Notes: a model not told the origin generated them from the letters alone. A stretch of 32,000 bases of DNA from Acaryochloris marina MBIC11017 (GCF_000018105.1 NC_009925.1:720001-752000), one strand, 5' to 3'. Numbered from the stretch's first letter, positions 310 to 22,089 are shown. Made by a program: numbers and translations.

Positions 310-1105
310 GGCGTTGCTCAATGACGGGATGAATTAATTGGATTGCGTCAGGATAACCTCATGACTATTTCAAACATCATGAGGAATCTGTATGAAGTGT
401 CCTGAGTGTGGTGGTCAACATATCCATAAGAATGGGCATCGTCGAGGTAAACAAAATCATATCTGTGTGACCTGTGGACGACAGTTTCTTTCAACTTACT
501 CAAAGCGTGGCTACAGTGATTGGACGAAACGACTCTGCCTGAGAATGTATGTCAATGGAATGGGGTTGAAGGGTATCGAACGAGTCATAGGCGTTGCTCA
601 TACCACTGTGATTCATTGGGTTCAACAAGTTGGAGTTCTATTACCCGATGCTTATGACCCCGACGATATCCCACAGGTCGGAGAATTAGATGAACTCGAA
701 ACCTTTGTGGGCAAAAAACGCAATAAGGTCTGGATTTGGACTGTGGTGGATCATTTTCACCCCGGCATTCTAGGCTGGGTTGTGGGTAACCATAGTGCTG
801 AGACCTTTCGACCGTTATGGCAAGCAATCGTCTGTTGGCAATGTTTTTTCTGGGTCAGTGATGGCAATCCCGTCTATCCAGGCTTTATCCCAGAGGGTGA
901 CCAGATTGTTAGCAAGACCTACATGACACGAGTAGAGGGAGAAAATACTCGTTTACGACATTACTTGGCACGGCTCCATCGCAAGACTTTATGTTATTCA
1001 AAGTCGGTGGACATGCTCAAGCATTCAATTCGACTATTGATCCACTATCTCAAGTTTGGGGAAGTACCTATTCCTGCGTGAGTCATCCCGTCATTGAGCA
1101 ACGCC
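310..1105 (+). mobile_element. IS1-family insertion sequence (single-ORF type), 796 bp
   Basis: Perfect 23-bp terminal inverted repeats: GGCGTTGCTCAATGACGGGATGA at 310-332 and its reverse complement at 1083-1105. They are flanked by a 9-bp direct repeat GCTGCTATT (301-309 and 1106-1114) and enclose the 392-1081 transposase ORF. Confidence 0.9.
392..1081 (+). CDS. IS1-family transposase (fused InsA-like zinc finger/HTH plus InsB-like DDE domain)
   Basis: N-terminal CPECGG...CVTCGRQF zinc finger. IS1-type catalytic motifs DELETFVGKKRNKVWIWTVVD, SDGNPVY and TRVEGENTRLRHYLARLHRKTLCYSKS. One uninterrupted 229-aa ORF. Confidence 0.9.
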   Translation: MKCPECGGQHIHKNGHRRGKQNHICVTCGRQFLSTYSKRGYSDWTKRLCLRMYVNGMGLKGIERVIGVAHTTVIHWVQQVGVLLPDAYDPDDIPQVGELDELETFVGKKRNKVWIWTVVDHFHPGILGWVVGNHSAETFRPLWQAIVCWQCFFWVSDGNPVYPGFIPEGDQIVSKTYMTRVEGENTRLRHYLARLHRKTLCYSKSVDMLKHSIRLLIHYLKFGEVPIPA

Positions 1106-2490: not shown

Positions 2491-2598
2491 GTGGTGAAGA
2501 TAATTCAACGTCGCTCCCTTGGCCTCCAGTCCGTTTATGACATCGGTCTCGCCCAAGATCATAATTTTGTGATGGCCAATGGTTGGGTTGCGGCCAAC
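2491..2598 (+). other. split DnaE intein C-fragment (Int-C, 36 codons); +1 Cys codon TGC at 2599-2601
   Basis: Residue pattern closely matches the known 36-aa Int-C of cyanobacterial DnaE split inteins (MVK.I.RRSLG.Q...DIGL.QDHNF...NG..AAN|CFN). Confidence 0.9.
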
Positions 2599-3831
2599 TG
2601 CTTTAATAAATCTCACTCCACCGCCTATGGATATGTCACCTATCAAACCGCCTATTTAAAAGCCAACTACCCCGTTGAGTATATGGCGGCCCTACTCACC
2701 GCCAATAGTGGTGATCAGGATAAAGTACAGAAGTACATTGCCACGGCCCTCAGCATGGGGATTGAAGTGGAACCGCCTGATATCAACCGTTCCGGCGTGG
2801 ATTTCACCCCCTTAGACAAAAATATTTTGTTTGGACTGTCTGCGGTTCGTAATTTGGGGCAAGGAGCCATTGAAGCCATTTTGGCAGCTCGGGATGAGGA
2901 TGGGGGGTTTGAGTCTTTGGCAGAGCTTTGCGATCGGGTTGATCCACGAGTGGTTAATCGGCGGGCATTAGAAGCCCTAATCTATAGCGGCGCTCTGGAT
3001 GCCTTTGACACCAATCGCAATCAGTTAGTCCATGATTTAGAACTCATTCTGGAATGGGCCCAGTCCCGGGCGAAGGATCGAGCGATAGGTCAGGGCAATC
3101 TCTTTGACATCATGGGCGGCGAAGGCGATGCACCTACCTCTTTAGAAACAGCCCCTAAAGCCGAACCCGTTGAAGATTTTCAAGAATCCGAAAAGCTGAA
3201 GCTGGAAAAAGAAATCCTTGGCTTCTATATTTCCAACCATCCCTTGCGAGAAATTGAGCGGCCCGCTCGGCTGATGGCTCCCATCAGTTTGGCGAATTTA
3301 GAAGAACAGCCCGAAAAAACCACCGTCAGTGCCATTGTGTTACTCACGGAAGTCAAGCCGATTATTACCAAGAAAGGCGATCGGATGGCGATCGTGCAGA
3401 TGGAAGACTTGTCGGGGAAGGCAGAAGGCGTCGTCTTTCCTCGAAGCTTTGAGCGGATTGGTGAGTACATTGAGACGGACCTCCGCCTAATGATTTGGGG
3501 GAAAGTAGATCGGCGAGACGATCGCATTCAGATCATTGTTGAAGATGCCGAGCCGATCGAAGAGGTGAAGCTTGTTATGGTGGAAATTCCGGCTCAAGAT
3601 GCCGGTAATATCCAGCAACAGCAACGGCTCAAGGAAATTTTGCGACAGCAAGCTGGAGAGGAAAACGCCGCCAAAGTATCTGTCATTGCCAAAATTAAGG
3701 GAGATGAAAAAAGTCAGTTGGTTCGTCTGGGGTCCCAGTTCCGAGTCCAAAATGAGCACATGGCGGTTCAAGCTCTTGCCAGTGCTGGCTTTCGCGCATC
3801 CTCTTCGGTGTTGGTTGATCTAAAAACCTGA
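2491..3831 (+). CDS. dnaE: DNA polymerase III alpha subunit, C-terminal half (split gene dnaE-C) preceded by the intein C-fragment
   Basis: Starts GTG-GTG-AAG, giving MVKIIQRRSLGLQSVYDIGLAQDHNFVMANGWVAAN (36 aa, DnaE Int-C pattern). This is followed by the CFNKSH extein junction and then Pol III alpha C-terminal sequence (AYGYVTYQTAYLKANYP, OB-fold region). Confidence 0.92.
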   Translation: MVKIIQRRSLGLQSVYDIGLAQDHNFVMANGWVAANCFNKSHSTAYGYVTYQTAYLKANYPVEYMAALLTANSGDQDKVQKYIATALSMGIEVEPPDINRSGVDFTPLDKNILFGLSAVRNLGQGAIEAILAARDEDGGFESLAELCDRVDPRVVNRRALEALIYSGALDAFDTNRNQLVHDLELILEWAQSRAKDRAIGQGNLFDIMGGEGDAPTSLETAPKAEPVEDFQESEKLKLEKEILGFYISNHPLREIERPARLMAPISLANLEEQPEKTTVSAIVLLTEVKPIITKKGDRMAIVQMEDLSGKAEGVVFPRSFERIGEYIETDLRLMIWGKVDRRDDRIQIIVEDAEPIEEVKLVMVEIPAQDAGNIQQQQRLKEILRQQAGEENAAKVSVIAKIKGDEKSQLVRLGSQFRVQNEHMAVQALASAGFRASSSVLVDLKT

Positions 3832-5042: not shown

Positions 5043-6329
5043 TTGAGAAAAGATTTGCTAACAGAAGACCGACCGTTAATTCAACTTGAGGACTCTAAAC
5101 AGCCCTTAAAGCAGGGACCAGACCAACGATGGTCTGCCATCGCCTTAGTGGCTGGAACCACGGTTGGGGCAGGTATTTTAGCCCTACCGGCCATGACTCA
5201 CCCCGCTGGATTTCTGCCCTCAACGGTGATGCTGATGGTGGTCTGGGTGTATGCCCTGGTGGCGGCCCTGTTGCTGGCTGAGGTCAATGTCGTCTGTATG
5301 CGCCGATCGGGGCAGGACAATATGGGATTGCTGGGGATGGTCGAACGTACCCTGGGTAAACCCATCGCTAATGTGGCGGGGGGTGCCTATTTATTCCTGC
5401 ACTATGCATTACTCGTTGCCTATCTGTCTCAAGGGGGAGATATTCTTTCCAGTGGGCTGGCCCATCTCGTGGGTGGGGCAGTTCCGGGTTGGGCTGGACC
5501 CACAGTGTTTGCCTTGATCTTTGGGGGGCTTCTGTATTGGGGAAGTGATCAGCTGGTCGCCAAGTTTAACAGCACCTTTGTCGGAATCGTAATTATCACG
5601 TTTGTGGCTCTATTGGTGCTGAGCGGTACTCAGGTTGATCCGGGAGAATTAGTCCATCAAAACTGGCCCGCCATTAGTCCTGCCATCTCGGTCATGTTAG
5701 TGGCGTTGTTCTATCACAATGTAGTGCCGGTGGTAGCAACCCAACTGGAGGGAGACTTAGGCAAAATCCGCCAGTCGATTGTGGTGGGGTCTGTGATTCC
5801 CCTGCTGATGTTTCTAGTTTGGAATGCAGTCATTTTGGGAAGTATAGGGGGCTTAGCTAGCTTGAGCGCTGGCAGTGAGGTGTTTGACCCCCTAGAAATA
5901 CTGCGCAACAATGCTGACTTACCGGGGTTGAGTATCGTGGTATCGGTGTTTTCAGAGTTTGCGATCGCAACCTCGTTCATCGGCTTCACCTACGGACTAC
6001 TAGATTTCCTTAAAGACGCGTTTCAAGTTCGGGAAATAACACCCGACAATCGCCTCCCCTTTTATTCGATTGTTTTTCTCCCCGCATTGGGACTCTCCAC
6101 CTTAAATCCCAATATCTTCTTTACAGCCCTTGACTATGCGGGAGCCTTTAGTATTTCGGTTTTAGGGGGCATCTTACCGGCGATCATGGCCTGGACGTTA
6201 CGGTATCGCTCTCCTCTGCAGACTTCACCCCAAACCTTAGTGCCAGGAGGACGGGGGACGCTGATTATTATGGTGGTTTTGGCCGTGGCCGTGATTGCCA
6301 TCCAAATTTCAACGATGGTGACAGCTTAA
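5043..6329 (+). CDS. amino acid permease (aromatic amino acid / Trp-Tyr permease-like), about 11-12 TM
   Basis: N-terminal GTTVGAGILALP motif and multiple hydrophobic spans throughout. TTG start; no ATG before the first TM. Confidence 0.7.
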   Translation: MRKDLLTEDRPLIQLEDSKQPLKQGPDQRWSAIALVAGTTVGAGILALPAMTHPAGFLPSTVMLMVVWVYALVAALLLAEVNVVCMRRSGQDNMGLLGMVERTLGKPIANVAGGAYLFLHYALLVAYLSQGGDILSSGLAHLVGGAVPGWAGPTVFALIFGGLLYWGSDQLVAKFNSTFVGIVIITFVALLVLSGTQVDPGELVHQNWPAISPAISVMLVALFYHNVVPVVATQLEGDLGKIRQSIVVGSVIPLLMFLVWNAVILGSIGGLASLSAGSEVFDPLEILRNNADLPGLSIVVSVFSEFAIATSFIGFTYGLLDFLKDAFQVREITPDNRLPFYSIVFLPALGLSTLNPNIFFTALDYAGAFSISVLGGILPAIMAWTLRYRSPLQTSPQTLVPGGRGTLIIMVVLAVAVIAIQISTMVTA

Positions 6330-6416
6330 AGTTATCTTTTTTCCTACTCCTTTAAGAATGTTTGGTATTTCCGACAATTGGGAAATCTAGTGGCTAAGAT
6401 TGAAATAGCCTACTAG

Positions 6417-7070
6417 GTGTACTCAGTAATGCTGACCCTGTATTGGTCTTGTTTTCTGATCGGTGGTGTTTTTGTTTTTCTAGCTGTTATTGGTGGTATT
6501 GATGGAGTTGAGTTTGAACTAGATGAGTTGGGACTAGACTCAGATGTAGAAATCTTTGATCAAAGATCTCGTTCCTCATCAACCTTCGATTCCATCTCTA
6601 AGAAACGCCGAAAGTTCCCCTTACTAGGTCTGTTTAGAAGCCTCAAATTCTGGACCTTTGGCAGTTGTTTTTTTGGCCTAACCGGCATTCTGCTGAGTGC
6701 ATTACAAACCGGGATGCCAGCTCTAGCCATTACGCTGATCGCCATGGCAATGGGCCTGTTCTTTGGAACGGCCATGTCCGGGTTACTCCTGTACCTCCGA
6801 CATCAGCAGACGGATAGCCTAATTAGCCATGATGATTTGGTGGGATTAGCAGGCACAGTTGAAATCCCTTTTGATGCCCAATCCCGAGGCAAAGTTCGCT
6901 TAAAAGTAAAGGGCAGCATCCTGGAAGTTGTGGCCTTTACCGATGGCAATCGTTCCTTTCAGCCCGGCGAGCAAGTGGTCGTCGTGGGTACCCAAGAGAA
7001 CAGAGTTTGGGTCGTCTCTAGTGATTCGTTTAATCAGCCGCCAGATGCGTTGAGCAGCGGCCAAACCTGA
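6417..7070 (+). CDS. NfeD/YqiJ-like membrane protein with C-terminal OB-fold
   Basis: N-terminal and central TM segments. C-terminal NfeD-type beta domain LAGTVEIPFDAQSRGKVRLKVKGSILEVVAF...GEQVVVVGTQENRVWVV. Sits directly upstream of flotillin genes, the canonical NfeD-SPFH arrangement. Alternative ATG at 6429. Confidence 0.75.
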   Translation: MYSVMLTLYWSCFLIGGVFVFLAVIGGIDGVEFELDELGLDSDVEIFDQRSRSSSTFDSISKKRRKFPLLGLFRSLKFWTFGSCFFGLTGILLSALQTGMPALAITLIAMAMGLFFGTAMSGLLLYLRHQQTDSLISHDDLVGLAGTVEIPFDAQSRGKVRLKVKGSILEVVAFTDGNRSFQPGEQVVVVGTQENRVWVVSSDSFNQPPDALSSGQT

Positions 7071-7171
7071 GTTTTAGCGTTTTTTACAACACCTAGTAGC
7101 GAATTTCTGTTTTGTGTTGTCGTTACATTGTTGTGTTTTTTGACATGGTAAGTAGCAGGAAATTTCAATCT

Positions 7172-8524
7172 ATGAGTGAGTCTGTCGATCAGCCCATTTG
7201 GGAGCAATCCCAATTGATTGCCCAAGTTGAATCCTCCCCTAGAGTGAATCGGGAGGAGCCTGGCCTTCCAACGGCGGTACCAATCGCGGGGGCCATTTTC
7301 GGTGTCATCCTGGTGGTTTGGTTCCTCAAGAATTTTTTGCGAATTTGCAATCCCAATGAAATCTTGATTTTATCGGGGCGCAAACATCGCACTAAAGAAG
7401 GGCAAACCGTTGGCTATCGGGTTATTTTTGGGGGCCGAGTGATTTCGATTCCCATCTTAGAATCTGTCAAAATCATGGACATGACTACCATGCCTGTCCC
7501 CGTTGAAGTCAAAAATGCCTATTCCAAGGGGGGGACACCCCTCGATATCCAAGCCATTGCCAACGTCAAAATCTCGAATGATCCGGCAGTCGTCGGCAAT
7601 GCCATTGAGCGATTCCTCGATCGCGATCGCAAAGAGATACTGCGGGTGGCCCGAGAAACATTAGAGGGGAATTTGCGGGGTGTGGTAGCTTTGCTGACCC
7701 CCGAACAAATCAACGAAGACCGACTGGAATTTGCCGAACGCATTGCCCAGGACGTCTCGCGAGAACTGGCAAAGTTGGGATTACAGCTGGATACCCTCAA
7801 AATTCAGAGTGTTGCCGATGAGGTTGATTATCTCAGCTCCATCGGCCGGAGACAGATTGCCCAGATTGTTAGGGATGCTGAGATTGCCGAGTCCAACGCC
7901 ATGGGAGAAGCCGAGCGGATCGAAGCCGACTGTCAGCAGCAGTCAGAAGTCGCTCAAACCCAGGCCCTAGCCGTTGTTCAGGAAAAACAAAACGAGCTAC
8001 GCAAAATTAAAGCGGAGCTAGAACAGCGAGCCAAGTCTGAAGAAGAACGCACCATTGCTGCCGGGAAAGAAGCCCGTGCCCGAGCAGAACAACAACTCCA
8101 GGCAATGCGAGCTGATTTAGAGCGGTTGCGTTTAGAGGCAGATGAGGTGCTTCCGGCGGAAGCCCAGCGGCAGGCCAAAGCCTTGCAGGCCCGAGGAGAA
8201 GCAGCCAGCTTAGGGGAAAATGCCAAAGCGGCAGCCCAAGTCAACGATATGTTGTCCAAAGTCTGGGAAGAAACCGGAACGGATGCCTCAGAAGTCTTCT
8301 TAATTCAGCAAATTGAAATGGTGCTGCAACAGGCGGCAGAGATTCCCAATCGGGTCAAATTAGATCGCATCAATGTCATTGATAACGGTGATGGGCAGTC
8401 CATTGCCAGTTTGGTGAATGCTTACCCAGAAATGGTGCGACAATTCCTCGATCGAGTCGATCAAACCCTAGGCATTGACGTCACTGGCACCCTCAAAGCC
8501 CAGCATCAGGATAAAGGAGAATAG
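7172..8524 (+). CDS. flotillin-like SPFH/Band-7 protein (paralog 1)
   Basis: N-terminal TM, then SPFH core (NEILILSGRKH...YRVIFGGRVISIPILE...VKNAYSKGGTPLDIQAIANVKI) and a long E/A/Q/R-rich coiled-coil flotillin tail. Start is uncertain: ATG 7172, ATG 7145 or ORF-track 7112. Confidence 0.85.
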   Translation: MSESVDQPIWEQSQLIAQVESSPRVNREEPGLPTAVPIAGAIFGVILVVWFLKNFLRICNPNEILILSGRKHRTKEGQTVGYRVIFGGRVISIPILESVKIMDMTTMPVPVEVKNAYSKGGTPLDIQAIANVKISNDPAVVGNAIERFLDRDRKEILRVARETLEGNLRGVVALLTPEQINEDRLEFAERIAQDVSRELAKLGLQLDTLKIQSVADEVDYLSSIGRRQIAQIVRDAEIAESNAMGEAERIEADCQQQSEVAQTQALAVVQEKQNELRKIKAELEQRAKSEEERTIAAGKEARARAEQQLQAMRADLERLRLEADEVLPAEAQRQAKALQARGEAASLGENAKAAAQVNDMLSKVWEETGTDASEVFLIQQIEMVLQQAAEIPNRVKLDRINVIDNGDGQSIASLVNAYPEMVRQFLDRVDQTLGIDVTGTLKAQHQDKGE

Positions 8525-8526
8525 AA

Positions 8527-10038
8527 ATGGAATTAGTGATTGTCCTATTGGGCGTGATGGGATTAGGAACGGGGGCCGTTGCTCTAGTTATCCGCAATCT
8601 CCTTTATATTTGTCAGCCCAGTGAAGTCCTCATCTTTGCGGGCAGTACCCAGCGGTCAGCAGATGGGAAGCGTATTGGTTATCGTCTCGTCAAAGGCGGT
8701 AAAAGTGTCCGTAAGCCCTTACTGGAAAGGGCATTACGCATGGACCTCACCAATATGATTATTGACTTGCGGGTCTCCAATGCCTATTCCAAAGGGGGTA
8801 TTCCACTGCAGGTAGAAGGCGTCGCCAACATCAAAATTGCTGGGGAAGAACCCACCATTCACAATGCCATTGAACGATTGTTGGGTAAAAGTCGCAAAGA
8901 GATTGAGCAAATTGCCAAGGAAACCCTAGAAGGTAATCTAAGGGGTGTCCTAGCTAGCTTGACCCCTGAGCAGGTGAATGAAGACAAAATTGCCTTTGCC
9001 AAAAGCCTATTGGAAGAAGCGGAAGATGATTTAGAACAGTTGGGTTTAGTCCTTGATACCCTACAGATTCAAAATATATCTGATGATGTGCGCTATCTAG
9101 ACTCCATTGGTCGCAAGCAGCAAGCGGATCTGCAGCGGGATGCTCGGATTTCGGAAGCGGAAGCCCAGGCTGAATCCACCATTAAAGCCGCCGAAAATGA
9201 ACGGATTACCTCTCTCAAGCGGTTAGATCGCGACATTGGCATTGCCACTGCTGAAGCGGAACGTCGAATTCAGGATGCTAAAACCAAGCGAGGCGCGGTT
9301 GTGGCGGAAGCCGAAGCAGAGATTGCCTCAGAGCTAGCTCGAATTCAAGCAGAGATTCCGGTGCAGCAGGAGCGGATCAAACAGGTGGAACAACAGCTCC
9401 AGGCCGATGTGGTGGCCCCCGCCGAAGCGAAATGCAAACGCGCTATTGCCCGAGCCCAGGGGGATGCGGCCCAGATTATTGAGGATGGCAAAGCTCAGGC
9501 CGAGGGTACATTGCGCCTCGCAGAATCCTGGCAGAAAGCAGGGAGTAGCGCTCGCGATATTTTCTTATTGCAAAAACTGGAAGTGCTGCTCTCGACCCTA
9601 ACCGCTACGGTGCCGGATGTGACGGTTCAAAATGTCACGGTTGTGGACACGACCAATGGTGGAGGCGCGACGAAAGCCGCTGCATTTCTAGAGCAGATTC
9701 GCCACACCACGGGTATGGATATTGCGGGTGCTGTCCAGAACATCGTCAAATCAGACCCGGCTCCCAAACCCATTGAGCCACAAATGACAGAGGACGATTT
9801 TGTGGCTTTGCGGGCTGATGTCCAGAATGTTCTGGGGATTGTAGCCCAATCAAAGCTGGGCGGGATTCAGGCCGAACGCTCTGTAGAGGCAGCAGTCAAA
9901 ATGAACACTTCCCTGCAAAATCGACTTCAACGCGCTCTGCAGGCCGGAGGGGATGCTGCCATTGAAGCTCTCTTTGAGCATCCTGTGATTCGAATTCCCT
10001 CGCGAATTGTTGAGGCCTGGATTCAGGACGATGACTAA
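8527..10038 (+). CDS. flotillin-like SPFH/Band-7 protein (paralog 2, with about 100-aa extra C-terminal extension)
   Basis: Same architecture and colinear motifs as paralog 1 (SEVLIFAGS...YRLVKGGKSVRKPLLE...VSNAYSKGGIPLQVEGVANIKI, EA-rich coiled coil). ATG lies 2 nt after the paralog-1 stop, with AGGAG inside the upstream gene end. Confidence 0.88.
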   Translation: MELVIVLLGVMGLGTGAVALVIRNLLYICQPSEVLIFAGSTQRSADGKRIGYRLVKGGKSVRKPLLERALRMDLTNMIIDLRVSNAYSKGGIPLQVEGVANIKIAGEEPTIHNAIERLLGKSRKEIEQIAKETLEGNLRGVLASLTPEQVNEDKIAFAKSLLEEAEDDLEQLGLVLDTLQIQNISDDVRYLDSIGRKQQADLQRDARISEAEAQAESTIKAAENERITSLKRLDRDIGIATAEAERRIQDAKTKRGAVVAEAEAEIASELARIQAEIPVQQERIKQVEQQLQADVVAPAEAKCKRAIARAQGDAAQIIEDGKAQAEGTLRLAESWQKAGSSARDIFLLQKLEVLLSTLTATVPDVTVQNVTVVDTTNGGGATKAAAFLEQIRHTTGMDIAGAVQNIVKSDPAPKPIEPQMTEDDFVALRADVQNVLGIVAQSKLGGIQAERSVEAAVKMNTSLQNRLQRALQAGGDAAIEALFEHPVIRIPSRIVEAWIQDDD

Positions 10039-10124
10039 TTCCTCTCCCGTCCTCGCTGTAAGGCATGAGGGCCATTGATATAGGCGGATAAGGGGCAAAT
10101 TGTCCCATCGGCCAAAACCATTGG

Positions 10125-10160
10125 GAATACTAAGTTTGGCTGTCTCCGAACTTAGTATTC
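10125..10160 (+). terminator. perfect 12-bp stem / 12-nt loop hairpin after the flotillin operon
   Basis: GAATACTAAGTT (10125-10136) pairs with AACTTAGTATTC (10149-10160), followed by GCTTTTG. It ends 6 nt before the GTG at 10167. Function (terminator or translational control) is not resolved. Confidence 0.45.
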
Positions 10161-10166
10161 GCTTTT

Positions 10167-12671
10167 GTGAGCCGTTTAGACACTATTCTTCCTCCCTTAG
10201 CACCGGCAGGATCCACAGATGAATCGAGTCCTGTCGCGGAAGACCTAGCGTCACGGCTTGTATCCGATCGGATGCAAGCTTTTGAAGCGAGTCAAACCTC
10301 GTCTGACCTATCCCAGCCTTTTACTCTACATGCAGAAGAAGAGCAACGATTCCTCTGGCTAGGCATTCTAGCCAAAAATGCAACCTTTACGGCTAAAACC
10401 GCCGCAATCCTTTGGTTCTGCTCTGTTAAAGAGGCTGAAGTACTCCTGCAGCGATGGGTCGACCAGCAGATCCTAATCGAACAGCAATGGTCCCAGTCCA
10501 GCCTCAGCCCTTTTCAGCACATTTACCAACTCCCTGTCTCTTTACAGCAGGTTGCCTATACCGGTTTACTGCAACAACAGCTTGAAGCACGGGAAGCTCA
10601 TGGGGCTCTGGTGGAACGCTATCAGGCCCTGACCCATAAACGGTTGTGGCATACCCTGGAAGATGATGGTTATATTCATGCCCATTTAACCTGGCACTTG
10701 CAGGCTGCAGATCGCTGTGATGAAATCCACATTCTTCTGCAGGAAGAAGCAGAATCCGGTGCAAATGGTTGGTATGAAGCTTGCGATCGCAACGGCTATA
10801 CGGCTTTCTACTGTCGGGATGTGGACTTAGCGTGGCAGCTAGCAGAGGAGCAATACGAGCAATCCCCCACTCAATCCATTCAACTGCAGTGCCGCTATGC
10901 CATGATGACGGTTGCTCATCATCGTGTGGTTCGTCGACTACCAGCCCCTTTGATAGGAGCCTTTGTCCACCAACAAGTCTGGACACCTACCCAAAGCATT
11001 ACCTTTTTTGAGCTAATTCAAGACTCTCAACATGAATTTGAGGTTCTGCAGAGCTTAATCCCAGCTCTGCCCACCACCTATCACCCCTATATCCTCTCGG
11101 TTATCCAACGTCAGTCTCATGCCGCCCACCAAGCGCAGTTATTGTGCCTTCTAGCGCCCCTATTGGAGGCAAGGCTGTTTCCGGAGCTGTTAAAAATCAT
11201 CCGATCCTTACCGGCTGATTTTTACAAAGCGATTGTGCTACGTGAGATATCAGCCCAGATACCCACTTCTCTATTAGATCAAACCATCGCCATTACCCAA
11301 ACCCTTTCCCCGTCGGATGAAATGGTTGCTGCCTGTGGAATTGTGACCCGTTGGCCCCAAACCACTTCCATTTACTTGAATCAGCTAATCAATCGCCAAA
11401 CGGGTGAAATAGAAGAGAGTGTTTGTTCAGAATTCTTGGTGGCAATTGCACCGACGATTTCTAATGCTCAAAAAGCGCAGGTCTTGAAAGTAATCAATTC
11501 TATTGACCAACCCGCTACAAGGGCCAGGCTTCTCATTCACCTTCTTCCCCATCATCCTGGTCTGCTTTCGGTGACCTTTCGCACAGTATGTTCCATTAAG
11601 GATGAACGGTCTTGTGCATTCGCCCTCAGCAAAATTGTTCCATATTTAAGTGAAGTTGAAATTCAACTTGCTTTGAACATATTGGAAAAGTTTGAGGATC
11701 CACTGGCCTACAGCACTGTCCTTCCCCCCATTTGCGAACATCAATTTGCAGCTAACATTACGACCAAACTGCTCAAAATAATCAACACTTTGCCGGATGA
11801 ACTAGACCGGGGGCAAGCGCTGGGAACTCTTTACCCCCATTTCTCCCCATCGGTCCAAAGCGAAGTGCAAGGTCAGATTAGTGCTTTCACCAATCCAACG
11901 GCAAAAGTACTCTCCATTTGCCAACTGGCCAGTACAGAGACATCTAATCTGCCCACGGCACTTCACTGGCTGTCGCAATGCCAAGATAGCCAGATTCAAT
12001 TTCGGGCCTACTGGACTTTGAGTCAACAGCGTCCCAAACTGCTGCCTGCGGCATTGACAGCGGCCTGCCAAATCACCGATATAGATGCCCAGATATTGGC
12101 CTTCCAGCAGTTAGCCCCTCTGTTAACCCATGAGCAGATTCAGCATGTCTTAGCCATTGCTCAAAAAGTAACCAGCAAAGACAAACAGCAGAGAATCCTT
12201 GAAATTGTGATTCCCTACTGTTCTCCAGGATTACTGTTAAACATTCAGGCACTGAGGAGCCCACACCCTAAGAATCAGGTTTATACATCGGTCTTAAGTA
12301 CCCTTAAGGCTCAACTGACCTCCTCAGCGTTGAAATTAAGTCCATGGGAAGCCAGAAAAAGGACCCTGGATTCTCTCAATGCCATGCTTCCCAATGACCT
12401 ATTGGCCCAGACCCTGGCTGCAACCTTTGAATTTACCGATAAAGTCGATCGAGCCAAGTCCTTAAGCCGATTGCTTCCTCAAATTCACCCTTCGCAGATC
12501 GATTATTCTCAGTGGTGTAAAATCCTACACCAATTGACCGCACTCGATTACGATACTTTTCTTCTCAATATTCCCAAGCTCAGTCCATTGATGGAATATT
12601 TAGCAAGGCCCGAGATTCTCCACTGCACTGTGCAAAATATGGAGTTGATTCATCGGCAGTGGAAGCACTAG
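10167..12671 (+). CDS. STAND-tail protein: Apaf-1-like winged-helix/helical domain plus about 10 HEAT/ARM-like helical repeats, lacking an NTPase domain
   Basis: Residues about 60-230 resemble the WHD/HD2 region that follows NB-ARC (FLWLGILAKN..FTAKTAAILW...EAEVLLQRWVDQQILIE...DDGYIHAHLTWHLQAADRCDEIHILL). The remainder is a roughly 40-45 aa repeat of the form L..LaP.L....l...L..i..i.d...ra.aL..L.P.l. No GxxxxGK[ST] anywhere in the ORF. GTG start is uncertain; next ATG is 10269. Confidence 0.6.
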   Translation: MSRLDTILPPLAPAGSTDESSPVAEDLASRLVSDRMQAFEASQTSSDLSQPFTLHAEEEQRFLWLGILAKNATFTAKTAAILWFCSVKEAEVLLQRWVDQQILIEQQWSQSSLSPFQHIYQLPVSLQQVAYTGLLQQQLEAREAHGALVERYQALTHKRLWHTLEDDGYIHAHLTWHLQAADRCDEIHILLQEEAESGANGWYEACDRNGYTAFYCRDVDLAWQLAEEQYEQSPTQSIQLQCRYAMMTVAHHRVVRRLPAPLIGAFVHQQVWTPTQSITFFELIQDSQHEFEVLQSLIPALPTTYHPYILSVIQRQSHAAHQAQLLCLLAPLLEARLFPELLKIIRSLPADFYKAIVLREISAQIPTSLLDQTIAITQTLSPSDEMVAACGIVTRWPQTTSIYLNQLINRQTGEIEESVCSEFLVAIAPTISNAQKAQVLKVINSIDQPATRARLLIHLLPHHPGLLSVTFRTVCSIKDERSCAFALSKIVPYLSEVEIQLALNILEKFEDPLAYSTVLPPICEHQFAANITTKLLKIINTLPDELDRGQALGTLYPHFSPSVQSEVQGQISAFTNPTAKVLSICQLASTETSNLPTALHWLSQCQDSQIQFRAYWTLSQQRPKLLPAALTAACQITDIDAQILAFQQLAPLLTHEQIQHVLAIAQKVTSKDKQQRILEIVIPYCSPGLLLNIQALRSPHPKNQVYTSVLSTLKAQLTSSALKLSPWEARKRTLDSLNAMLPNDLLAQTLAATFEFTDKVDRAKSLSRLLPQIHPSQIDYSQWCKILHQLTALDYDTFLLNIPKLSPLMEYLARPEILHCTVQNMELIHRQWKH

Positions 12672-12688
12672 TTAGAACCACCCGCTTC

Positions 12689-13696
12689 CTAACTGAAATA
12701 GACCTTATATTTGTTGTAGAGCGCAATTCCTGGAATCACAGTCCCAAATTCCTTCACCCGTTTATATTTTTTGGGATTATATTCATTGCGTAGATTTTGG
12801 GCGACGGTAAAGTGTCGATACCACTCTTCAAGCAGTACTACTAACTCCTGAAATTTAGGGTAAGCCGTTTTATATTTTTCTTCTAAAGCGACATACTGCA
12901 GCATACGACCAAAGGTTTTGGGATTAACCAAGGATTCTGGCATGCCGATAATTTCACCCAACCGTTGAAAGGTTTCATAATGGGCAATCACTTCCGTATT
13001 GAGGATGCCTAAGTCATGTAAGTCCAATCGATCTAATCCATCAATAATATTGGCTACCGTATTGAGCATGGAATAGTTGGTCATTTTATGGCGTTTGAAG
13101 GAACGCAATAACCGAAATCCAAACCGATGCTTAGTGATAGTTTCTAAATTTTGATGATATTGCTGTAGTACTTCTTTCCCCACCTCTGTGCGGAGTTGCG
13201 GTTGGACCTCAACAAATTTGGTATTTAAGCTATCCAGAAATTCGGCTTGGGGGACATTACTTTGAAATAATGTCTCAACATAGTCATAAAGGAGCGCATG
13301 TTTTGAACCATAGAACTTAAACTCCATGCGTTCCAATGCCACGAATGTATTTTTGGCAGAAATACCTGCATGCAGCAGTTGTAGGTAGCGGTCTAGATTC
13401 TCATATCCCTCATGGCCTTCCGCAAAAGCGCGCTTGAGCTTCACAAAAGCGAGGAATTCAGGATTACCATATTTGCCATTGTCAATAGACAATGCTCGCT
13501 TTACCAATTTATTTATTGCCTGCAAAGCATCCGTATGGGTTTTAAGGACTCGCTCAGGGACTTCTTCTCTCTTGTGCCTTTTGAACAAAGAGCCCACACG
13601 CTCTGTCATACTCCGATCACCGACTAGTGGCCGATTCCACCAAGCTCGGTGTGGTTTTTGCTGCTGTGTACTATTTTCTTGGTCTAAAAAAGCCAT
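12689..13696 (-). CDS. hypothetical protein (335 aa, predicted all-helical, K/E/Y-rich), no family recognised
   Basis: Long uninterrupted ORF with an ATG start, convergent with the 834-aa gene. Visibly more AT-rich than neighbouring genes. Confidence 0.6.
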   Translation of the reverse strand: MAFLDQENSTQQQKPHRAWWNRPLVGDRSMTERVGSLFKRHKREEVPERVLKTHTDALQAINKLVKRALSIDNGKYGNPEFLAFVKLKRAFAEGHEGYENLDRYLQLLHAGISAKNTFVALERMEFKFYGSKHALLYDYVETLFQSNVPQAEFLDSLNTKFVEVQPQLRTEVGKEVLQQYHQNLETITKHRFGFRLLRSFKRHKMTNYSMLNTVANIIDGLDRLDLHDLGILNTEVIAHYETFQRLGEIIGMPESLVNPKTFGRMLQYVALEEKYKTAYPKFQELVVLLEEWYRHFTVAQNLRNEYNPKKYKRVKEFGTVIPGIALYNKYKVYFS

Positions 13697-14259
13697 AGTG
13701 GATACCTATTCGCCATCTTCTTCTCTCATCAATTAAGAACCCCATCACGGGATAGTCAGAGAGGAGCACTCAGATATGTGGAGCTTGGGAAGCTACCCAA
13801 CGATTCCCAATTTAAGATACACAGATTTTAATGAGAACTATCATGAGTACTGTAATGATAGAAAATCAGGATTTATTTATCAATCTAGAGAAAAGTATAT
13901 TTACTTTATTTTAAATCTGAGATGAATTATCTAAATCACCTTTTTTTGTTTTTGCAATCCACGCAGTTTCTCTAAATAACCAGTCTGATTAAATTGATAG
14001 TTAACCCCATCGCTCAGTTTTTATCCTCAGCATAAATTATTCAAATGACTTAAACATAGTGATTATGCATGAGTCAATCAGCCACTATTCTTCAACAAAG
14101 ATACAGAAAAATCGATGAATATTTATATATAAATACATATCATTAGATTTTTTTGGGTTGAACCCTTAGATAGTAAAAAAACTATTAAAATAGCACGATC
14201 TATCCTTTTTTTTCTAATAATAGAGGCCAAAATATAAAGCCAAGTGAGGATAACTTAAT

Positions 14260-19390: not shown

Positions 19391-20310
19391 TTGAATTATG
19401 CAAGAGGTCTACAGTTGCTATTAGACTCAATGAGGTTGAAATATACTGTGCTGTTTAAGATAGGAATAACCCAAAAATTTGACATAAAAAATATTGGGGA
19501 AAATACCGTGTTTAAAATAAGGGATGACGTTAGTTTTACTGCCAAAAAAATGGCTGCTGGCCGTGCATATAAAACGAGAAGATCGGATGCATTATTCATT
19601 GATCTCTTTGCTGAGAAACTAGCAGGCAAAGAGGTTCTAGAAAATGTAATTCCCCGGCTAGAAGCAGATAACAAAGCGGGAAGGCCTTTAACCTCAATTC
19701 GAACGCGTTACTTTGATGACTTGAGCCTAGAGCATTCTCAAAATATCCGGCAAATTGTCCTGTTAGGGGCAGGTCTGAATACCCGAGCTTTACGTATGGA
19801 ATGGGCCTCTGGCACTCATCTTTATGAGATTGATCAAAGTAACATATTGACCTAGAAGAATCAGTTCTAGAGAATATTCAGCCTACTTGTAATCGGCATG
19901 TAATCGCAGCTGATTTAAAAGACTCTCTTTGGTCTGAGATGCTAATTACACAGGGCTATCAACCTTCAAAACCGTCAATTTGGCTCCTGGAAGGGGTTTT
20001 ATATTATCTGAACGAAGAAGAAGTTCATAATTTGCTGACAACCATCACAACTTTGTCTGTTAAAGGAAGTTGGTTCGGGGCTGATGTTATCAACTCTGTA
20101 ATAATGAACGGCCAGCATGACTGGGCTAAGTATTGGCTGTCCTGTTGTGATGATCCAGAGTCTTTCTTTGAACAGTATGGTTGGCAGACCTCAGCGATTC
20201 AACCAGGTGATGAGGGTGCTTCGTTTGGCCGCTTCACATGCCAGTTTTCAGATCCTAGTCTTATTGATAAGCCTCATCTGTATTTTATAGCTGCCTGTAG
20301 GCAAGAGTAG
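19391..20310 (+). pseudogene. class I SAM-dependent methyltransferase (LCMT / TIGR00027-like O-methyltransferase) broken by a 1-nt deletion
   Basis: ORF 19391-19855 carries RSDALFIDLFAEKLAG...IVLLGAGLNTRALRM...YEIDQSNIL, then a stop. The +2 frame continues DLEESVLENIQPTCNRHVIAADLKD...PSIWLLEGVLYYL (ORF 19939-20310). The frames join if one base is added at about 19849/19850. True start is uncertain. Confidence 0.7.
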
Positions 20311-20956: not shown

Positions 20957-22089
20957 TCAAAGATTTATTGATGGGTAAAGTCTGTGTAATTTGACCCTGG
21001 CATCTTGCGTCGTGAACCGCCAGTCAATCCATGTTCCCTTTTGGTTTCGGTGCTCATTCCAAGCCCTCACATGCTTTTGTAAGGTTGGAAAATCAGCAAT
21101 GCGTTGATCTAAACATTGACGAGACAGGATACTTAATTCAATCTCAGCCATATTGAGCCAGCTTCCATGTTTGGGGGTGTAGAAAAATTCGAACCGAGAT
21201 AAAAGTCTCCTGGCTTCTTCAGGTTCAAAAGCTTTGTAGAGTGAGGAGGGAGAGTGAATATTGAGATTGTCTTGAACCAGCGTGAGGGTGTGGGCCTCAG
21301 GGTAAAACACATCCACTAATTCTTTGAGTAGATGAGCATAGTCAATGGCAGTTCGTCGTTGAGTTACTTTCACATATCGCGTGCCTACTATTGGCTCACA
21401 CAACATAAAGAGATTGGCTGTGCCCTTACGTTCATACTCATAGTCAACACGTTCGGGTTGACCACGTTGAGCCGCGATGGGTAGAGTGATTTCCTCAACC
21501 AATTGCTTGGTGGCTTCATCCAGACAAATCAAAGGATTCCTCAAGTCATAAGGACGCTCATAAACCGTTAAGAGCTCCTCCATCCGCCAGACAAATTCTG
21601 CATTCTGCTGTGGGGGGATGACCCAACAGGTCTTTCGCCAAGGCTGCAACTCGTTTTTTTTAGAGTTTGTCGGACACTCTCATGACTGAGGTGGTCGATG
21701 TAGCCTAATTCCACCATCTGGTCTGCGAGTAAGCGTAATGTCCAGCGAGCATGACCAACGGGGGGTTCACTGCAGCGTAAGGCAATCAGATGAGCTTCTT
21801 GTTCTTCTTGTATTTTTCGCTTTCGACCTGCCCCAGAACGTTGATTGATAGCAGCTTCAAGGCCTTCTTCCACAAATCGCATACGCACCCGCTCAATTGT
21901 GCGTATGCTGACACCTATCGCTTCATGAATTTCTCGATCACAGCAACCACCATGAGTTTGGTTAGTATCCGCTTTCAGAAGAATGCGGGCATGATTGATT
22001 TGCCGAGCACCTCGTTTTCCCGTGAACGTGAAATTCTTGAGATACTGTTGCTCTGGCTCACTCAGAGTGACGATGTACCGTTTACCCAT
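20957..22089 (-). CDS. IS630-family transposase, two overlapping frames (orfA 21568-22089, orfB 20957-21649) joined by -1 frameshift
   Basis: orfA has HTH domains (MGKRYIVTLSEPEQQYLK...IGVSIRTIERV...). orfB has the DDE domain (KTCWVIPP...LICLDE...LVQDNLNIHS...TPKHGSWLNMAEIE). A -1 slip on A AAA AAA gives the canonical ...TLKKNELQPWRK... junction. Confidence 0.85.
21654..21661 (-). other. A8 slippery tract (A AAA AAA heptamer) for -1 ribosomal frameshift or transcriptional slippage
   Basis: T8 on the plus strand at 21654-21661, which is A8 on the coding strand, located exactly at the orfA/orfB overlap. Confidence 0.65.

What the first reader, a model, noticed from the sequence alone, without database searches (positions are those of the whole stretch)
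10167..12671. 834-aa STAND tail without an NTPase, sitting directly behind a flotillin operon
The first about 230 residues look like the winged-helix plus helical-domain-2 module that normally follows the NB-ARC ATPase in Apaf-1/CED-4/R-protein-type STAND proteins. Examples: FLWLGILAKN..FTAKTAAILW..EAEVLLQRWVDQQILIE and DDGYIHAHLTWHLQAADRCDEIHILL. From memory, these parallel the Apaf-1 LSIL..D..V....L..LW....VE..L.EFVNKSLL and YWYNFLAYHMASA... segments. The remaining about 600 residues are roughly 10 copies of a 40-45 aa helical repeat (L..LAP.L....L...L..I..I.D...RA.AL..L.P.L). No Walker A motif occurs anywhere in the ORF. Only 128 bp separate it from the upstream flotillin stop, so no ATPase domain can be encoded in cis. 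It is either a decapitated STAND gene or a stand-alone sensor/adaptor module working with an ATPase in trans, or with the adjacent flotillin scaffold. I do not know of a characterised precedent for an NTPase-less STAND sensor arm linked to SPFH proteins.
Basis: partly seen in the sequence, partly recalled or inferred. Interest (0 to 1): 0.7.

Follow-up and report, generated by a model that had tools for sequence, protein, structure and literature searches.

The report
Headless STAND sensor arm, conserved gene
This cyanobacterial gene is the sensor two-thirds of an Apaf-1/NLR-type immune switch protein that lost its ATPase motor and effector head long ago yet has been kept intact by selection, and its position next to flotillin genes is ordinary local gene order rather than a functional partnership.

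Summary
The ORF (10167-12671, 834 aa) is real. It aligns end to end with the C-terminal two-thirds of cyanobacterial effector-NB-ARC-WHD-HD2-repeat STAND proteins (BLASTP E 2e-70), starting exactly at their winged-helix domain. An orthologue profile hits Apaf-1 WHD/HD2 (E 3.6e-6), and all 11 orthologues hit Pfam APAF1_C. There is no Walker A and no NB-ARC, either in the ORF or nearby. It is not a pseudogene. Orthologues down to 36% identity keep the same headless form, and dN/dS is 0.11. The ADP-contacting MHD motif (YRLHDLLHD in full-length relatives) has decayed to YQLP, which argues that no NTPase partner remains. The tail is about 15 HEAT-like hairpins of ~32 aa, not 10 x 40-45 aa. The flotillin link fails: it is present only in closer relatives (>=55% identity) as part of a larger syntenic block, and absent or interrupted in three more distant lineages. 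What does travel with the gene everywhere is a near-invariant ~65-nt 5' element (core GGGAATACTAAG, two hairpins). Precedents exist in Arabidopsis NRG1C (WHD-LRR only) and Ulva APAF1_C/WD40. My best reading is an exapted, nucleotide-independent binding or scaffold protein. It is a new prokaryotic variant of a known kind and moderately interesting.

The parts
10100..10166 (+). Conserved non-coding 5' element of the tail gene. It has an invariant core GGGAATACTAAG (10123-10134), a small hairpin (~10103-10126), and a 13-15 bp hairpin (10125-10160) followed by a T-run that abuts the GTG start.
   Evidence: It is near-invariant in every orthologue locus, including those without flotillin upstream. 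The 12-mer core occurs exactly once, on the + strand, upstream of the gene in all orthologue loci including L029 (36% identity). Among the 15 fetched loci that carry no orthologue it appears only in L027, a presumed chance hit; about 0.05 chance hits were expected. Flagged as terminator-like. RNA fold -27.8 kcal/mol, z = -4.66. 96% of cells paired versus 27-52% in slid controls, with 2 compensatory pairs. No Rfam match.
10167..12671 (+). Complete ORF, 834 aa, GTG start: a headless STAND derivative.
10167..10331 (+). Residues 1-55: a poorly conserved, predicted-disordered leader. Only MSRL.TILPP is semi-conserved. Residues ~40-55 align weakly with the HD1/WHD junction of full-length relatives.
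   Evidence: pLDDT < 50 for residues 1-50. dN/dS 0.675. Alignment. BLASTP.
10332..10529 (+). Residues 56-121: winged-helix domain (three helices H56-65, H76-83, H87-99, plus a beta-hairpin wing E104-106/E119-121).
   Evidence: Orthologue profile versus Apaf-1 1z6t, E 3.6e-6, covering Apaf-1 residues 344-503. AF2 topology. The motif WLGILAKNA aligns with the family's WLGVLPEDV.
10524..10550 (+). Residues 120-128, YQLPVSLQQ: the degenerate MHD-motif position. Full-length relatives have Y[RK][LM]HDL.HD here.
   Evidence: Column-by-column comparison of alignment A2.
10536..11021 (+). Residues ~124-285: helical domain 2 (APAF1_C-type). It includes the most conserved block of the whole family (DDGYIHAHLTWHL...NGWYEACDR...LQCRYA).
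   Evidence: Pfam PF17908, 23.4 bits against a 22.8 cutoff. All 11 of 11 orthologues hit it. Family-wide invariant columns. dN/dS 0.076 for residues 56-290.
11025..12482 (+). Residues 287-772: about 15 HEAT-like helix-turn-helix repeats with a ~32-aa period. They are degenerate relative to the regular 30-31-aa repeats of full-length relatives.
   Evidence: AF2 model, pLDDT mostly 85-96. Foldseek hits to SF3B1, TNPO3, PP2A-A and importin-beta at probability 1.0. The family repeat HMM gives only faint matches. dN/dS 0.098.
12504..12671 (+). Residues 780-834 plus the stop codon: a C-terminal helical cap (W..ILH.L...FL..IPKL.P...RQW) shared with full-length relatives.
   Evidence: BLASTP alignments run to the last residues of P0025 and P0015. 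dN/dS 0.058.
12689..13696 (-). Convergent 335-aa all-alpha protein of unknown fold. It is the most constant neighbour within the Acaryochloris clade, but a functional link is unproven.
   Evidence: It is adjacent in all Acaryochloris-clade loci, including L004/L017 where both outer flanks differ. It is not adjacent in L029, and its distant homologues lack a tail neighbour. No Pfam, PADLOC or PDB-fold match.

Best explanation
Shown: the gene encodes disordered leader + WHD + HD2 + ~15 HEAT-like repeats + C-cap. This is the sensor arm of a cyanobacterial family of effector-NB-ARC-WHD-HD2-repeat STAND proteins whose heads are caspase, TIR, CHAT, trypsin or EAD domains. The effector, the P-loop NBD and HD1 were lost at the HD1/WHD junction in an ancestor of an Acaryochloridaceae clade. 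The remainder has since been inherited vertically in a housekeeping chromosomal neighbourhood under purifying selection. Inferred: it no longer works as a nucleotide switch. It cannot bind or hydrolyse NTP itself, and the WHD His-Asp (MHD) that reads ADP in the NBD pocket has decayed, so it probably does not dock onto a trans-encoded NBD either. I commit to this mechanism: an exapted, nucleotide-independent binding or scaffold protein. Its individually differentiated, conserved HEAT-like repeats bind a fixed protein partner, the WHD-HD2 serves as a rigid structural base, and expression is controlled through its own conserved structured 5' leader. Acting as a non-signalling 'sponge' for the ancestral ligand, as NRG1C does, is the closest sub-variant. 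Its position behind the flotillin operon is local synteny.
For: Homology: BLASTP E 2e-70 (P0015, query 40 aligned to subject 323) and 8e-63 (P0025, query 54-832 aligned to subject 476-1207), both running to the extreme C-terminus. There are 2,012 family representatives, and 112 of 145 non-orthologous top hits carry >=200 aa before the WHD. WHD/HD2: Apaf-1 E 3.6e-6; APAF1_C in 11 of 11 orthologues. No NTPase. Maintained gene: 11 orthologues of 824-851 aa at 49-87% identity share one start, and there is a 36% identity headless relative. dN/dS is 0.108 overall (WHD-HD2 0.076, repeats 0.098, cap 0.058) at dS 0.62, similar to neighbouring housekeeping genes. MHD decay: all 11 orthologues have YQLP; stand-alone headless P0046 and P0033 have also lost it; P0044, with an adjacent NB-ARC ORF, keeps YRLHDLLHD; the deeper headless P0013 still has YSLHD, so the head was lost before the motif. 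Structure: pLDDT 85, pTM 0.75, a HEAT-like solenoid. Own regulatory unit: the 5' element travels with the gene whatever lies upstream. Setting: housekeeping genes, no defence genes, no PADLOC hit.
Against: No partner or ligand has been identified. The 335-aa neighbour has no recognisable fold, and its linkage breaks at greater depth. Split relatives (L014, L030) show that sensor arms of this family may work with separately encoded NB-ARC proteins, so a distant trans NTPase cannot be excluded. I could not take a genome-wide census of NB-ARC paralogues in the tail-carrying genomes. The MHD argument is correlative and rests on a few lineages. In one MAG (L029) the gene is split into two ORFs, which could mean loss in that lineage or an assembly error.
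Confidence: 0.5

Rival explanations
1. NRG1C-type brake. The headless arm competes with a full-length paralogue encoded elsewhere in the genome for the same activating ligand. It titrates that ligand without signalling and so damps a STAND cell-death or immune pathway.
For: The architecture is the same as NRG1C (WHD plus sensor repeats, with the oligomerising part lost), and NRG1C outcompetes NRG1A for activated EDS1-SAG101 (PMC12177489). Another stand-alone headless relative (P0046) sits 1.3 kb from a caspase gene and a CHAT-NACHT STAND gene. A dedicated regulatory leader would suit an inducible brake.
Against: No full-length paralogue lies in the window or in any orthologue locus. None of the named full-length hits comes from Acaryochloris. 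The query repeats are strongly diverged from the regular repeats of full-length members. Stable vertical inheritance in a housekeeping block is unlike the patchy distribution of conflict genes.
Confidence: 0.2
2. Split STAND. The tail is the sensor subunit of a multi-gene STAND system and docks onto a separately encoded NB-ARC NTPase (and effector) located elsewhere in the genome.
For: Two relatives are arranged this way: L014 has SEFIR/TIR-EAD8 | NB-ARC 265 aa | tail 1110 aa, and L030 has TIR | NB-ARC 287 aa | HD2-repeat tail 931 aa. About 17% of top representatives start at the WHD or HD2 boundary.
Against: In those cases the NB-ARC ORF is immediately upstream. Here none is within 32 kb or in any of ~10 orthologue loci. 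The MHD His-Asp needed to read the NBD-bound nucleotide is lost here but kept in split P0044. The WLGVLPEDV motif and the WHD-HD2 linker are also altered. Some 'split' relatives may be frameshifts or assembly errors.
Confidence: 0.15
3. Flotillin-associated adaptor. The tail is the fourth gene of the nfeD-flotillin-flotillin operon and tethers a client to flotillin membrane scaffolds.
For: It lies on the same strand, 110-250 nt behind the last flotillin, in the window and in L015, L005, L018, L006/L007 and L008/L016. HEAT solenoids are typical scaffolds. Band7 domains are noted as scaffolding modules in some conflict systems (PMC7159879).
Against: Adjacency exists only in relatives at >=55% identity and sits within a wider conserved block. 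L001 has TM2 and DUF2752 upstream, L004/L017 have CLC and DHC, and L003 has an opposite-strand gene in between. Flotillin copy number varies (3 in L015) with no change in the tail. A terminator-like hairpin and the gene's own conserved 5' element lie between them, and that element stays with the tail when flotillins are absent. None of the six fetched relatives' loci with called genes (L012, L013, L014, L030) or partner-homologue loci (L009, L010) shows a flotillin gene.
Confidence: 0.07
4. A truncated pseudogene or decaying remnant with no function.
For: It lacks the family's catalytic core. In L029 the gene appears as two ORFs.
Against: The reading frame is intact at ~830 aa in 11 orthologues at 49-87% identity. 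dN/dS is 0.11 across WHD-HD2, repeats and cap at dS 0.62. The AF2 model is confident. The 5' element is conserved.
Confidence: 0.02

Closest known systems
Cyanobacterial effector-NB-ARC-WHD-HD2-HEAT-like-repeat STAND proteins (e.g. P0025, P0015, P0014; Pfam PF00931 + PF17908; AP-ATPase clade, conflict systems of multicellular bacteria, PMC7159879)
   Same: Homologous over the whole 780 residues from the WHD to the last residue. Shares the HD2 signature (DDGYIH..LTWHL, NGWYEACDR, LQCRYA), the repeat type and the C-terminal cap.
   Different: No effector, P-loop NBD or HD1. The MHD motif, the PED motif and the WHD-HD2 linker are degenerate. The repeats are individually diverged rather than regular. 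The gene is vertically inherited in a housekeeping context.
Apaf-1 (PDB 1z6t, 3jbt)
   Same: The WHD and the first half of HD2 are detectable by sequence profile (E 3.6e-6, Apaf-1 residues 344-503).
   Different: Apaf-1 has CARD, NBD and HD1 and a WD40 sensor. This protein has none of the first three and has a HEAT-like sensor.
Arabidopsis NRG1C (and N. benthamiana NRG2), N-terminally truncated helper NLRs
   Same: Retains only the WHD plus the repeat sensor, lacks the P-loop and the signalling head, and is a maintained gene. The known mechanism is ligand sequestration without oligomerisation (PMC12177489).
   Different: NRG1C has an LRR sensor, no HD2, and sits in a cluster with its full-length paralogues. 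Here the sensor is HEAT-like, no paralogue is nearby, and the organism is a bacterium. The origins are independent.
Chlorophyte APAF1_C/WD40 proteins (Ulva mutabilis UM033_0004)
   Same: A conserved gene family that kept APAF1_C/HD2 plus the repeat sensor after evolutionary loss of NB-ARC. No solitary NB-ARC partner was found (PMC8891106).
   Different: It is eukaryotic, has a WD40 sensor, and has mostly lost the WHD as well. Its function is likewise unknown.
Split three-gene STAND loci in the same family (L014: SEFIR/TIR-EAD8 | NB-ARC | tail; L030: TIR | NB-ARC | tail)
   Same: The sensor arm is encoded as a separate ORF that starts at the WHD or HD2 boundary.
   Different: There the NB-ARC and effector ORFs are immediately upstream and the MHD is intact (P0044). 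Here they are absent and the MHD is lost.
Avs7-type sensor reused in NTPase-less defence proteins (Dsr1)
   Same: A STAND sensor domain operating without a STAND NTPase (PMC13581612).
   Different: In Dsr1 the sensor is fused to a SIR2 effector. Here there is no effector domain at all.
HEAT-repeat scaffolds (PP2A A subunit PR65, importin-beta, SF3B1)
   Same: An alpha-solenoid of antiparallel helix hairpins. Foldseek probability 1.0, TM up to 0.42 on the target.
   Different: No sequence-profile match to HEAT families. The repeats derive from a STAND sensor array, and the period is ~32 aa rather than ~39-45.

Membership tests
STAND NTPase, NB-ARC/AP-ATPase clade (functional membership) | P-loop NTPase domain with Walker A GxxxxGK[ST] and Walker B | tested here: not met
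   No NB-ARC or P-loop Pfam hit in the query or in any of the 11 orthologues. The regex finds no Walker A in the ORF or in six frames of 6001-14000.
STAND NTPase, NB-ARC/AP-ATPase clade (functional membership) | HD1/ARC1 helical domain with GLPL-type motif | tested here: not met
   Homology to full-length relatives starts at the WHD. The family's GYLPLALE lies N-terminal to the aligned region.
STAND NTPase, NB-ARC/AP-ATPase clade (functional membership) | Winged-helix domain (ARC2) | tested here: met
   Orthologue profile versus Apaf-1, E 3.6e-6, covering its WHD. AF2 shows three helices plus a beta-hairpin at residues 56-121.
STAND NTPase, NB-ARC/AP-ATPase clade (functional membership) | MHD motif (His-Asp contacting the bound ADP) | tested here: not met
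   YQLPVSLQQ in the query and YQLP/YQIS in all 11 orthologues, against Y[RK][LM]HDL.HD in full-length relatives.
STAND NTPase, NB-ARC/AP-ATPase clade (functional membership) | HD2 (APAF1_C) following the WHD | tested here: met
   PF17908, 23.4 bits (cutoff 22.8), E 6e-5. 11 of 11 orthologues hit it, best E 5.8e-6.
STAND NTPase, NB-ARC/AP-ATPase clade (functional membership) | C-terminal superstructure-forming repeat sensor | tested here: met
   About 15 helical hairpins, HEAT-like by Foldseek, homologous to the repeats of P0015 and P0025.
STAND NTPase, NB-ARC/AP-ATPase clade (functional membership) | N-terminal effector or adaptor domain | tested here: not met
   Residues 1-50 are disordered and poorly conserved, with no domain hit.
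Cyanobacterial NB-ARC-HEAT-like family (evolutionary descent) | Significant end-to-end homology of WHD-HD2-repeats-cap to family members | tested here: met
   E 2e-70 and 8e-63. 319 representatives at E <= 1e-30.
N-terminally truncated NLR regulators (NRG1C type) | Only the WHD plus the sensor repeats are retained, in a maintained gene | tested here: met
   Architecture of NRG1C from PMC12177489.
N-terminally truncated NLR regulators (NRG1C type) | Full-length paralogue(s) in the same genome whose ligand it competes for | tested here: inconclusive
   None in the window or in the orthologue loci. The genome-wide census was not possible, because the GTDB scan patterns were orthologue-specific.
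N-terminally truncated NLR regulators (NRG1C type) | Competitive ligand binding without oligomerisation | not testable with these tools
   Needs biochemistry.
NfeD-flotillin (SPFH) operon component | Gene adjacency conserved across orthologues beyond background synteny | tested here: not met
   Adjacent in the window, L015, L005, L018, L006/7 and L008/16. Absent in L001/2 and L004/17. Interrupted in L003.
NfeD-flotillin (SPFH) operon component | Co-transcription with the flotillin genes | not testable with these tools
   A terminator-like hairpin lies in the gap. RNA-seq is needed.
HEAT-repeat proteins | Alpha-solenoid of antiparallel two-helix repeats | tested here: met
HEAT-repeat proteins | Match to HEAT sequence profiles | tested here: not met
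   No Pfam HEAT-family hit at E <= 1.
Pseudogene | Frame disruption or relaxed selection | tested here: not met
   Intact in 11 orthologues. dN/dS 0.108.

The most novel reading that the evidence does not exclude
A STAND immune-sensor arm was domesticated in a bacterial lineage into a stand-alone, nucleotide-independent protein with a fixed cellular partner, or into a prokaryotic NRG1C-like brake on STAND-mediated cell death. It is controlled by a dedicated, previously undescribed structured 5' leader (core GGGAATACTAAG). The series full-length, then headless with MHD (P0013), then headless without MHD records the steps of that exaptation.
Probability: 0.3. Interest if true: 0.65.

Novelty: new variant of a known kind. 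Interest (0 to 1): 0.45.

Why it matters
STAND/NLR proteins are understood as nucleotide-driven switches, and what their sensor arms can do alone is known only from a few eukaryotic cases (NRG1C, algal APAF1_C/WD40). This is a bacterial lineage in which the headless arm has been kept under purifying selection from 87% down to at least 36% protein identity. There is a visible molecular trace, the decay of the MHD motif, showing that coupling to a nucleotide pocket was given up. That provides a tractable system for asking whether truncated NLR-like proteins act as decoys or brakes, or are recruited to unrelated functions. The comparison set found here (full-length, split three-gene, and stand-alone headless forms within one family) also suits study of how modular STAND systems come apart. 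The conserved 5' element is a candidate new cis-regulatory RNA or operator. The practical lesson is negative: the flotillin adjacency that made the finding look exotic is ordinary synteny.

Tried and rejected
- Single-sequence phmmer against PDB gave only spurious telomerase matches (E ~0.08). The orthologue profile was needed to reach Apaf-1.
- PADLOC gave no hit for the tail or the 335-aa neighbour.
- Foldseek of the whole model is dominated by the HEAT solenoid, so it did not test the WHD-HD2 fold separately.
- I considered the 335-aa convergent neighbour as the missing NTPase or partner. It is all-alpha with no P-loop and no fold match (best E 0.056). Its distant homologues lack a tail neighbour, and the L029 neighbour is unrelated. 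It is rejected as an NTPase and remains unproven as a partner.
- A repeat HMM built from 134 family repeats barely detects the query's repeats, so the repeat count rests on the AF2 model.
- Rfam found nothing for the 5' element or the window, and there are no tRNAs.
- The metagenome scan for the 20-mer of the element returned only the known L001 contig plus one hit inside an unrelated ORF in AT-rich DNA, taken as chance. So there is no evidence of a wider regulon.
- The GTDB scan used orthologue-specific peptide patterns. It therefore says nothing about full-length paralogues in Acaryochloris genomes.
- The sigma-70 promoter scan found no convincing promoter in the 128-nt gap.
Full report
**1. 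The observation**

The ORF 10167-12671 (+) is present as described: 834 aa, GTG start, 128 nt after the stop of a 503-aa flotillin. An in-frame TAA at 10131-10133 excludes a longer N-terminus. Upstream lie an NfeD-like gene (6417-7070; Pfam NfeD below threshold) and two Band_7/flotillin genes. No Walker A or looser P-loop pattern occurs in the ORF or in any frame of 6001-14000. Pfam finds no NB-ARC in the protein or in any of its 11 orthologues.

**2. What it is**

Database searching splits the relatives into two classes.

- About eleven orthologues of 824-851 aa, at 49-87% identity and full coverage, have no NB-ARC.
- Hundreds of proteins of 1,000-1,800 aa, at 25-33% identity, carry NB-ARC (PF00931), often APAF1_C (PF17908), and N-terminal caspase, TIR, CHAT, trypsin or EAD domains.

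BLASTP against two full-length members gives E 2e-70 and 8e-63. The alignment begins at query residue 40-54, which corresponds to subject residue 323 or 476 (the start of their winged-helix domain), and runs to the very last residues.

An HMM of the 11 orthologues hits Apaf-1 structures (1z6t, 3jbt and others) at E 3.6e-6 over Apaf-1 residues 344-503. From established domain boundaries, that region is the end of HD1, the WHD and the first part of HD2. APAF1_C is hit just above Pfam's cutoff in the query (23.4 against 22.8 bits) and in all 11 orthologues.

An exhaustive HMMER scan of 1.84 billion representatives finds 2,012 family members. Of the 145 best non-orthologous ones, 112 have at least 200 residues before the WHD. 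The 'STAND tail without NTPase' reading is therefore correct.

**3. Structure**

AlphaFold2 with a 40-sequence alignment gives pLDDT 85.2 and pTM 0.75. The model reads as follows.

- Residues 1-50 are disordered.
- Residues 56-121 form a three-helix plus beta-hairpin winged helix.
- Residues ~124-285 form a helical domain.
- About 15 helix-turn-helix hairpins follow, with a ~32-residue period (287-772).
- A helical cap closes the protein (780-834).

Foldseek against the PDB returns HEAT solenoids at probability 1.0: SF3B1, transportin-3, PP2A-A and importin-beta.

A repeat HMM built from 134 regular 30-aa repeats of full-length members recognises the query's repeats only faintly. The headless lineage thus has individually diverged repeats, which are nevertheless conserved among orthologues.

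**4. Not a pseudogene**

The orthologues share the same start (MSRL...) and length. Conservation is low for residues 1-55 and high from W64 to the C-terminal RQW. Against the 87%-identical orthologue locus L015, dN/dS is 0.108 at dS 0.62. By region it is 0.076 for WHD-HD2, 0.098 for the repeats, 0.058 for the cap, and 0.675 for the leader. This is comparable with the neighbouring NfeD-like (0.106) and TrmO (0.083) genes.

A deeper relative, P0013 from another Acaryochloridaceae MAG (36% identity), has the same short leader and no head. In that assembly, however, the gene is split into 567- and 278-aa ORFs.

**5. A molecular trace of life without an NTPase**

In alignment A2, nearly all NB-ARC-bearing relatives have Y[RK][LM]HDL.HD at the end of the WHD (a few show a one- or two-residue substitution, and P0036 a gap). 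This is the MHD-type motif, whose histidine contacts ADP in Apaf-1 and plant NLRs (established knowledge).

- All 11 headless orthologues have YQLP/YQIS there.
- They have also changed WLGVLPEDV to WLGILAKNA.
- They have lost the ~10-20-residue 'LPGLGL' WHD-HD2 linker.
- Stand-alone headless P0046 (YRLSQGLRD) and P0033 (YRLDGVLHA) have also lost the motif.
- P0044, which has an NB-ARC-only ORF 18 nt upstream, keeps YRLHDLLHD.
- P0013 still has YSLHD and the long linker.

The order of events thus seems to be head loss first, then decay of the nucleotide-reading motif. This is correlative, but it argues against a present-day NBD partner.

**6. The flotillin link**

I examined the neighbourhoods of ten distinct orthologue loci.

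- Flotillins lie directly upstream on the same strand in the window, L015 (87%; three flotillin genes there), L005 (68%), L018 (67%), L006/L007 (56%) and L008/L016 (55%). In each case this is part of a longer conserved block: epimerase, DnaE-C, a 200-aa gene, YidD, Trp/Tyr permease, NfeD-like gene, flotillins.
- In L003 (51%) a minus-strand zinc-ribbon gene intervenes.
- In L001/L002 (53%) the upstream genes are TM2 and DUF2752.
- In L004/L017 (49%) they are a CLC channel and a dihaem cytochrome.

Adjacency therefore decays with distance like ordinary synteny.

The window itself is housekeeping DNA with a few IS elements. It has no STAND NTPase and no defence genes, and PADLOC finds nothing.

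**7. The constant neighbours**

(a) A convergent 335-aa gene (12689-13696, minus strand) is adjacent in every Acaryochloris-clade locus, including L004/L017 where both outer flanks differ. It is all-alpha (pLDDT 83), with no Pfam, PADLOC or PDB-fold match, so it is not the missing NTPase. Its more distant homologues (41-46% identity) have no tail next to them, and in L029 the convergent neighbour is unrelated. A functional pairing is therefore unproven.

(b) A ~65-nt non-coding element sits immediately 5' of the start codon (10100-10166). It is almost invariant across loci whose proteins are only 49-68% identical, whether or not flotillins are upstream. Its 12-mer core GGGAATACTAAG occurs exactly once, on the + strand, upstream of the gene in every orthologue locus, including L029. 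Among the 15 fetched loci that carry no orthologue it appears only in L027; about 0.05 chance hits were expected.

The element folds into two hairpins (-27.8 kcal/mol, z -4.7). Pairing is 96%, against 27-52% in slid controls. Several substitutions preserve pairing through G-U wobble, and two pairs are compensatory, though only 8 distinct sequences are available. The larger hairpin plus T-run scores as terminator-like. Rfam has no match, and a metagenome scan found no further genuine copies.

The gene therefore carries its own conserved regulatory unit. This again separates it from the flotillin operon.

**8. Comparators inside the family**

Two relatives are encoded as split three-gene strings.

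- L014: SEFIR/TIR-EAD8 | NB-ARC (265 aa) | WHD-HD2-repeats (1110 aa).
- L030: TIR | NB-ARC (287 aa) | HD2-repeats (931 aa).

P0046 is a stand-alone headless form that lies near a caspase gene and a CHAT-NACHT gene. About 17% of the top representatives start at the WHD or HD2 boundary, though some of these may be fragments or frameshifts.

Sensor arms of this family thus appear as separate ORFs, normally right next to their NTPase. The window's gene differs in having none.

**9. Mechanism**

Shown: a folded, selected WHD-HD2-HEAT-like protein without NTPase, effector or MHD motif, and with its own 5' element.

Inferred, as my best explanation (about 0.5): an exapted, nucleotide-independent binding or scaffold protein with a fixed partner.

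Rivals are an NRG1C-like brake on a full-length paralogue (0.2), the sensor subunit of a split STAND with a distant NB-ARC (0.15), a flotillin adaptor (0.07) and a pseudogene (0.02).

**10. Comparison with the known, and novelty**

It descends from the NB-ARC STAND family but fails the functional membership tests for P-loop, HD1, MHD and effector.

Its closest functional analogues are eukaryotic. Arabidopsis NRG1C is WHD-LRR only and sequesters activated EDS1-SAG101 from NRG1A/B (PMC12177489). Chlorophyte APAF1_C/WD40 proteins lost NB-ARC, and no solitary NB-ARC partner was found for them (PMC8891106). In bacteria, reuse of a STAND sensor without the NTPase is reported for Avs7/Dsr1, but there it is fused to an effector (PMC13581612).

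In the papers I searched, I found no description of a conserved prokaryotic effector-less, NTPase-less WHD-HD2-repeat protein. That is absence of evidence from a limited library.

Verdict: a new variant of a known kind, of moderate interest. The feature that made it look exotic, SPFH linkage, does not hold.

Noticed in passing
window 10100-10166 (core 10123-10134): A near-invariant non-coding element lies directly 5' of the tail gene: two hairpins, then a T-run that abuts the GTG start. It is conserved far better than the coding sequence and is present in all orthologue loci whatever lies upstream. There is no Rfam match. It is a candidate new cis-regulatory leader or operator.
   Followed up: yes
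L014 5702-10766; L030 4164-8796: Split three-gene STAND systems occur in the same family: a TIR/SEFIR(-EAD8) gene, then an NB-ARC-only ORF (265 or 287 aa), then a separate WHD-HD2-repeat or HD2-repeat ORF. These are either genuine multi-subunit STANDs or frameshifts.
   Followed up: partly
L012 8001-16532: P0046 is another stand-alone headless tail (775 aa, MHD lost) with a Cupin_2 gene upstream. A caspase (Peptidase_C14, 708 aa) and a CHAT-NACHT STAND gene (917 aa) lie 1.3 kb downstream, among transposase fragments.
   Followed up: partly
window 12689-13696 (-): A 335-aa all-alpha protein of unknown fold (pLDDT 83, no PDB fold match, no Pfam). Only ~20 homologues exist, mostly from Acaryochloridaceae. 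It is the constant convergent neighbour of the tail within the Acaryochloris clade, with dN/dS 0.057.
   Followed up: partly
L015 5669-9872 versus window 7112-10038: The 87%-identical relative has three tandem flotillin (Band_7) genes (450, 444, 503 aa) where the window has two, so flotillin copy number varies between close relatives.
   Followed up: no
window 7112-8524: The mechanically listed TTG start (470 aa) of the first flotillin is probably too far upstream. Orthologues are 449-450 aa, which fits the ATG at 7175 (MSESVDQ...). The NfeD-like gene 6417-7070 scores below Pfam's NfeD cutoff (23.5 against 29.1 bits).
   Followed up: partly
window 2491-3831: The ORF begins with a DnaE split-intein C-fragment ([36 protein letters not shown]|CFN...), followed by the HHH_6 and OB-fold C-terminal part of DNA polymerase III alpha. 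This is the dnaE-c half of the split dnaE typical of cyanobacteria.
   Followed up: partly
window 19391-19855 and 19939-20310: Two consecutive + strand ORFs carry the N- and C-terminal parts of one LCM-type methyltransferase domain (profile positions 3-118 and 152-187). This is probably a frameshifted or interrupted gene.
   Followed up: no
window 392-1081, 20957-21649, 29177-29977: Three transposase genes of different families (IS1, DDE_3, IS4/5-type DDE_Tnp_1) are scattered through an otherwise housekeeping region.
   Followed up: no
L029 785-3337: In the Acaryochloridaceae CSU_5_19 MAG, the headless tail is split into 567-aa and 278-aa ORFs 12 nt apart (a frameshift, stop or assembly error). 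This copy still has YSLHD at the MHD position.
   Followed up: partly
window 10001-13000: GC skew turns negative (-0.06 to -0.19) across the tail gene, while the + strand genes upstream have positive skew. Cumulative skew peaks at ~10 kb. This may reflect amino-acid composition and was not investigated.
   Followed up: no
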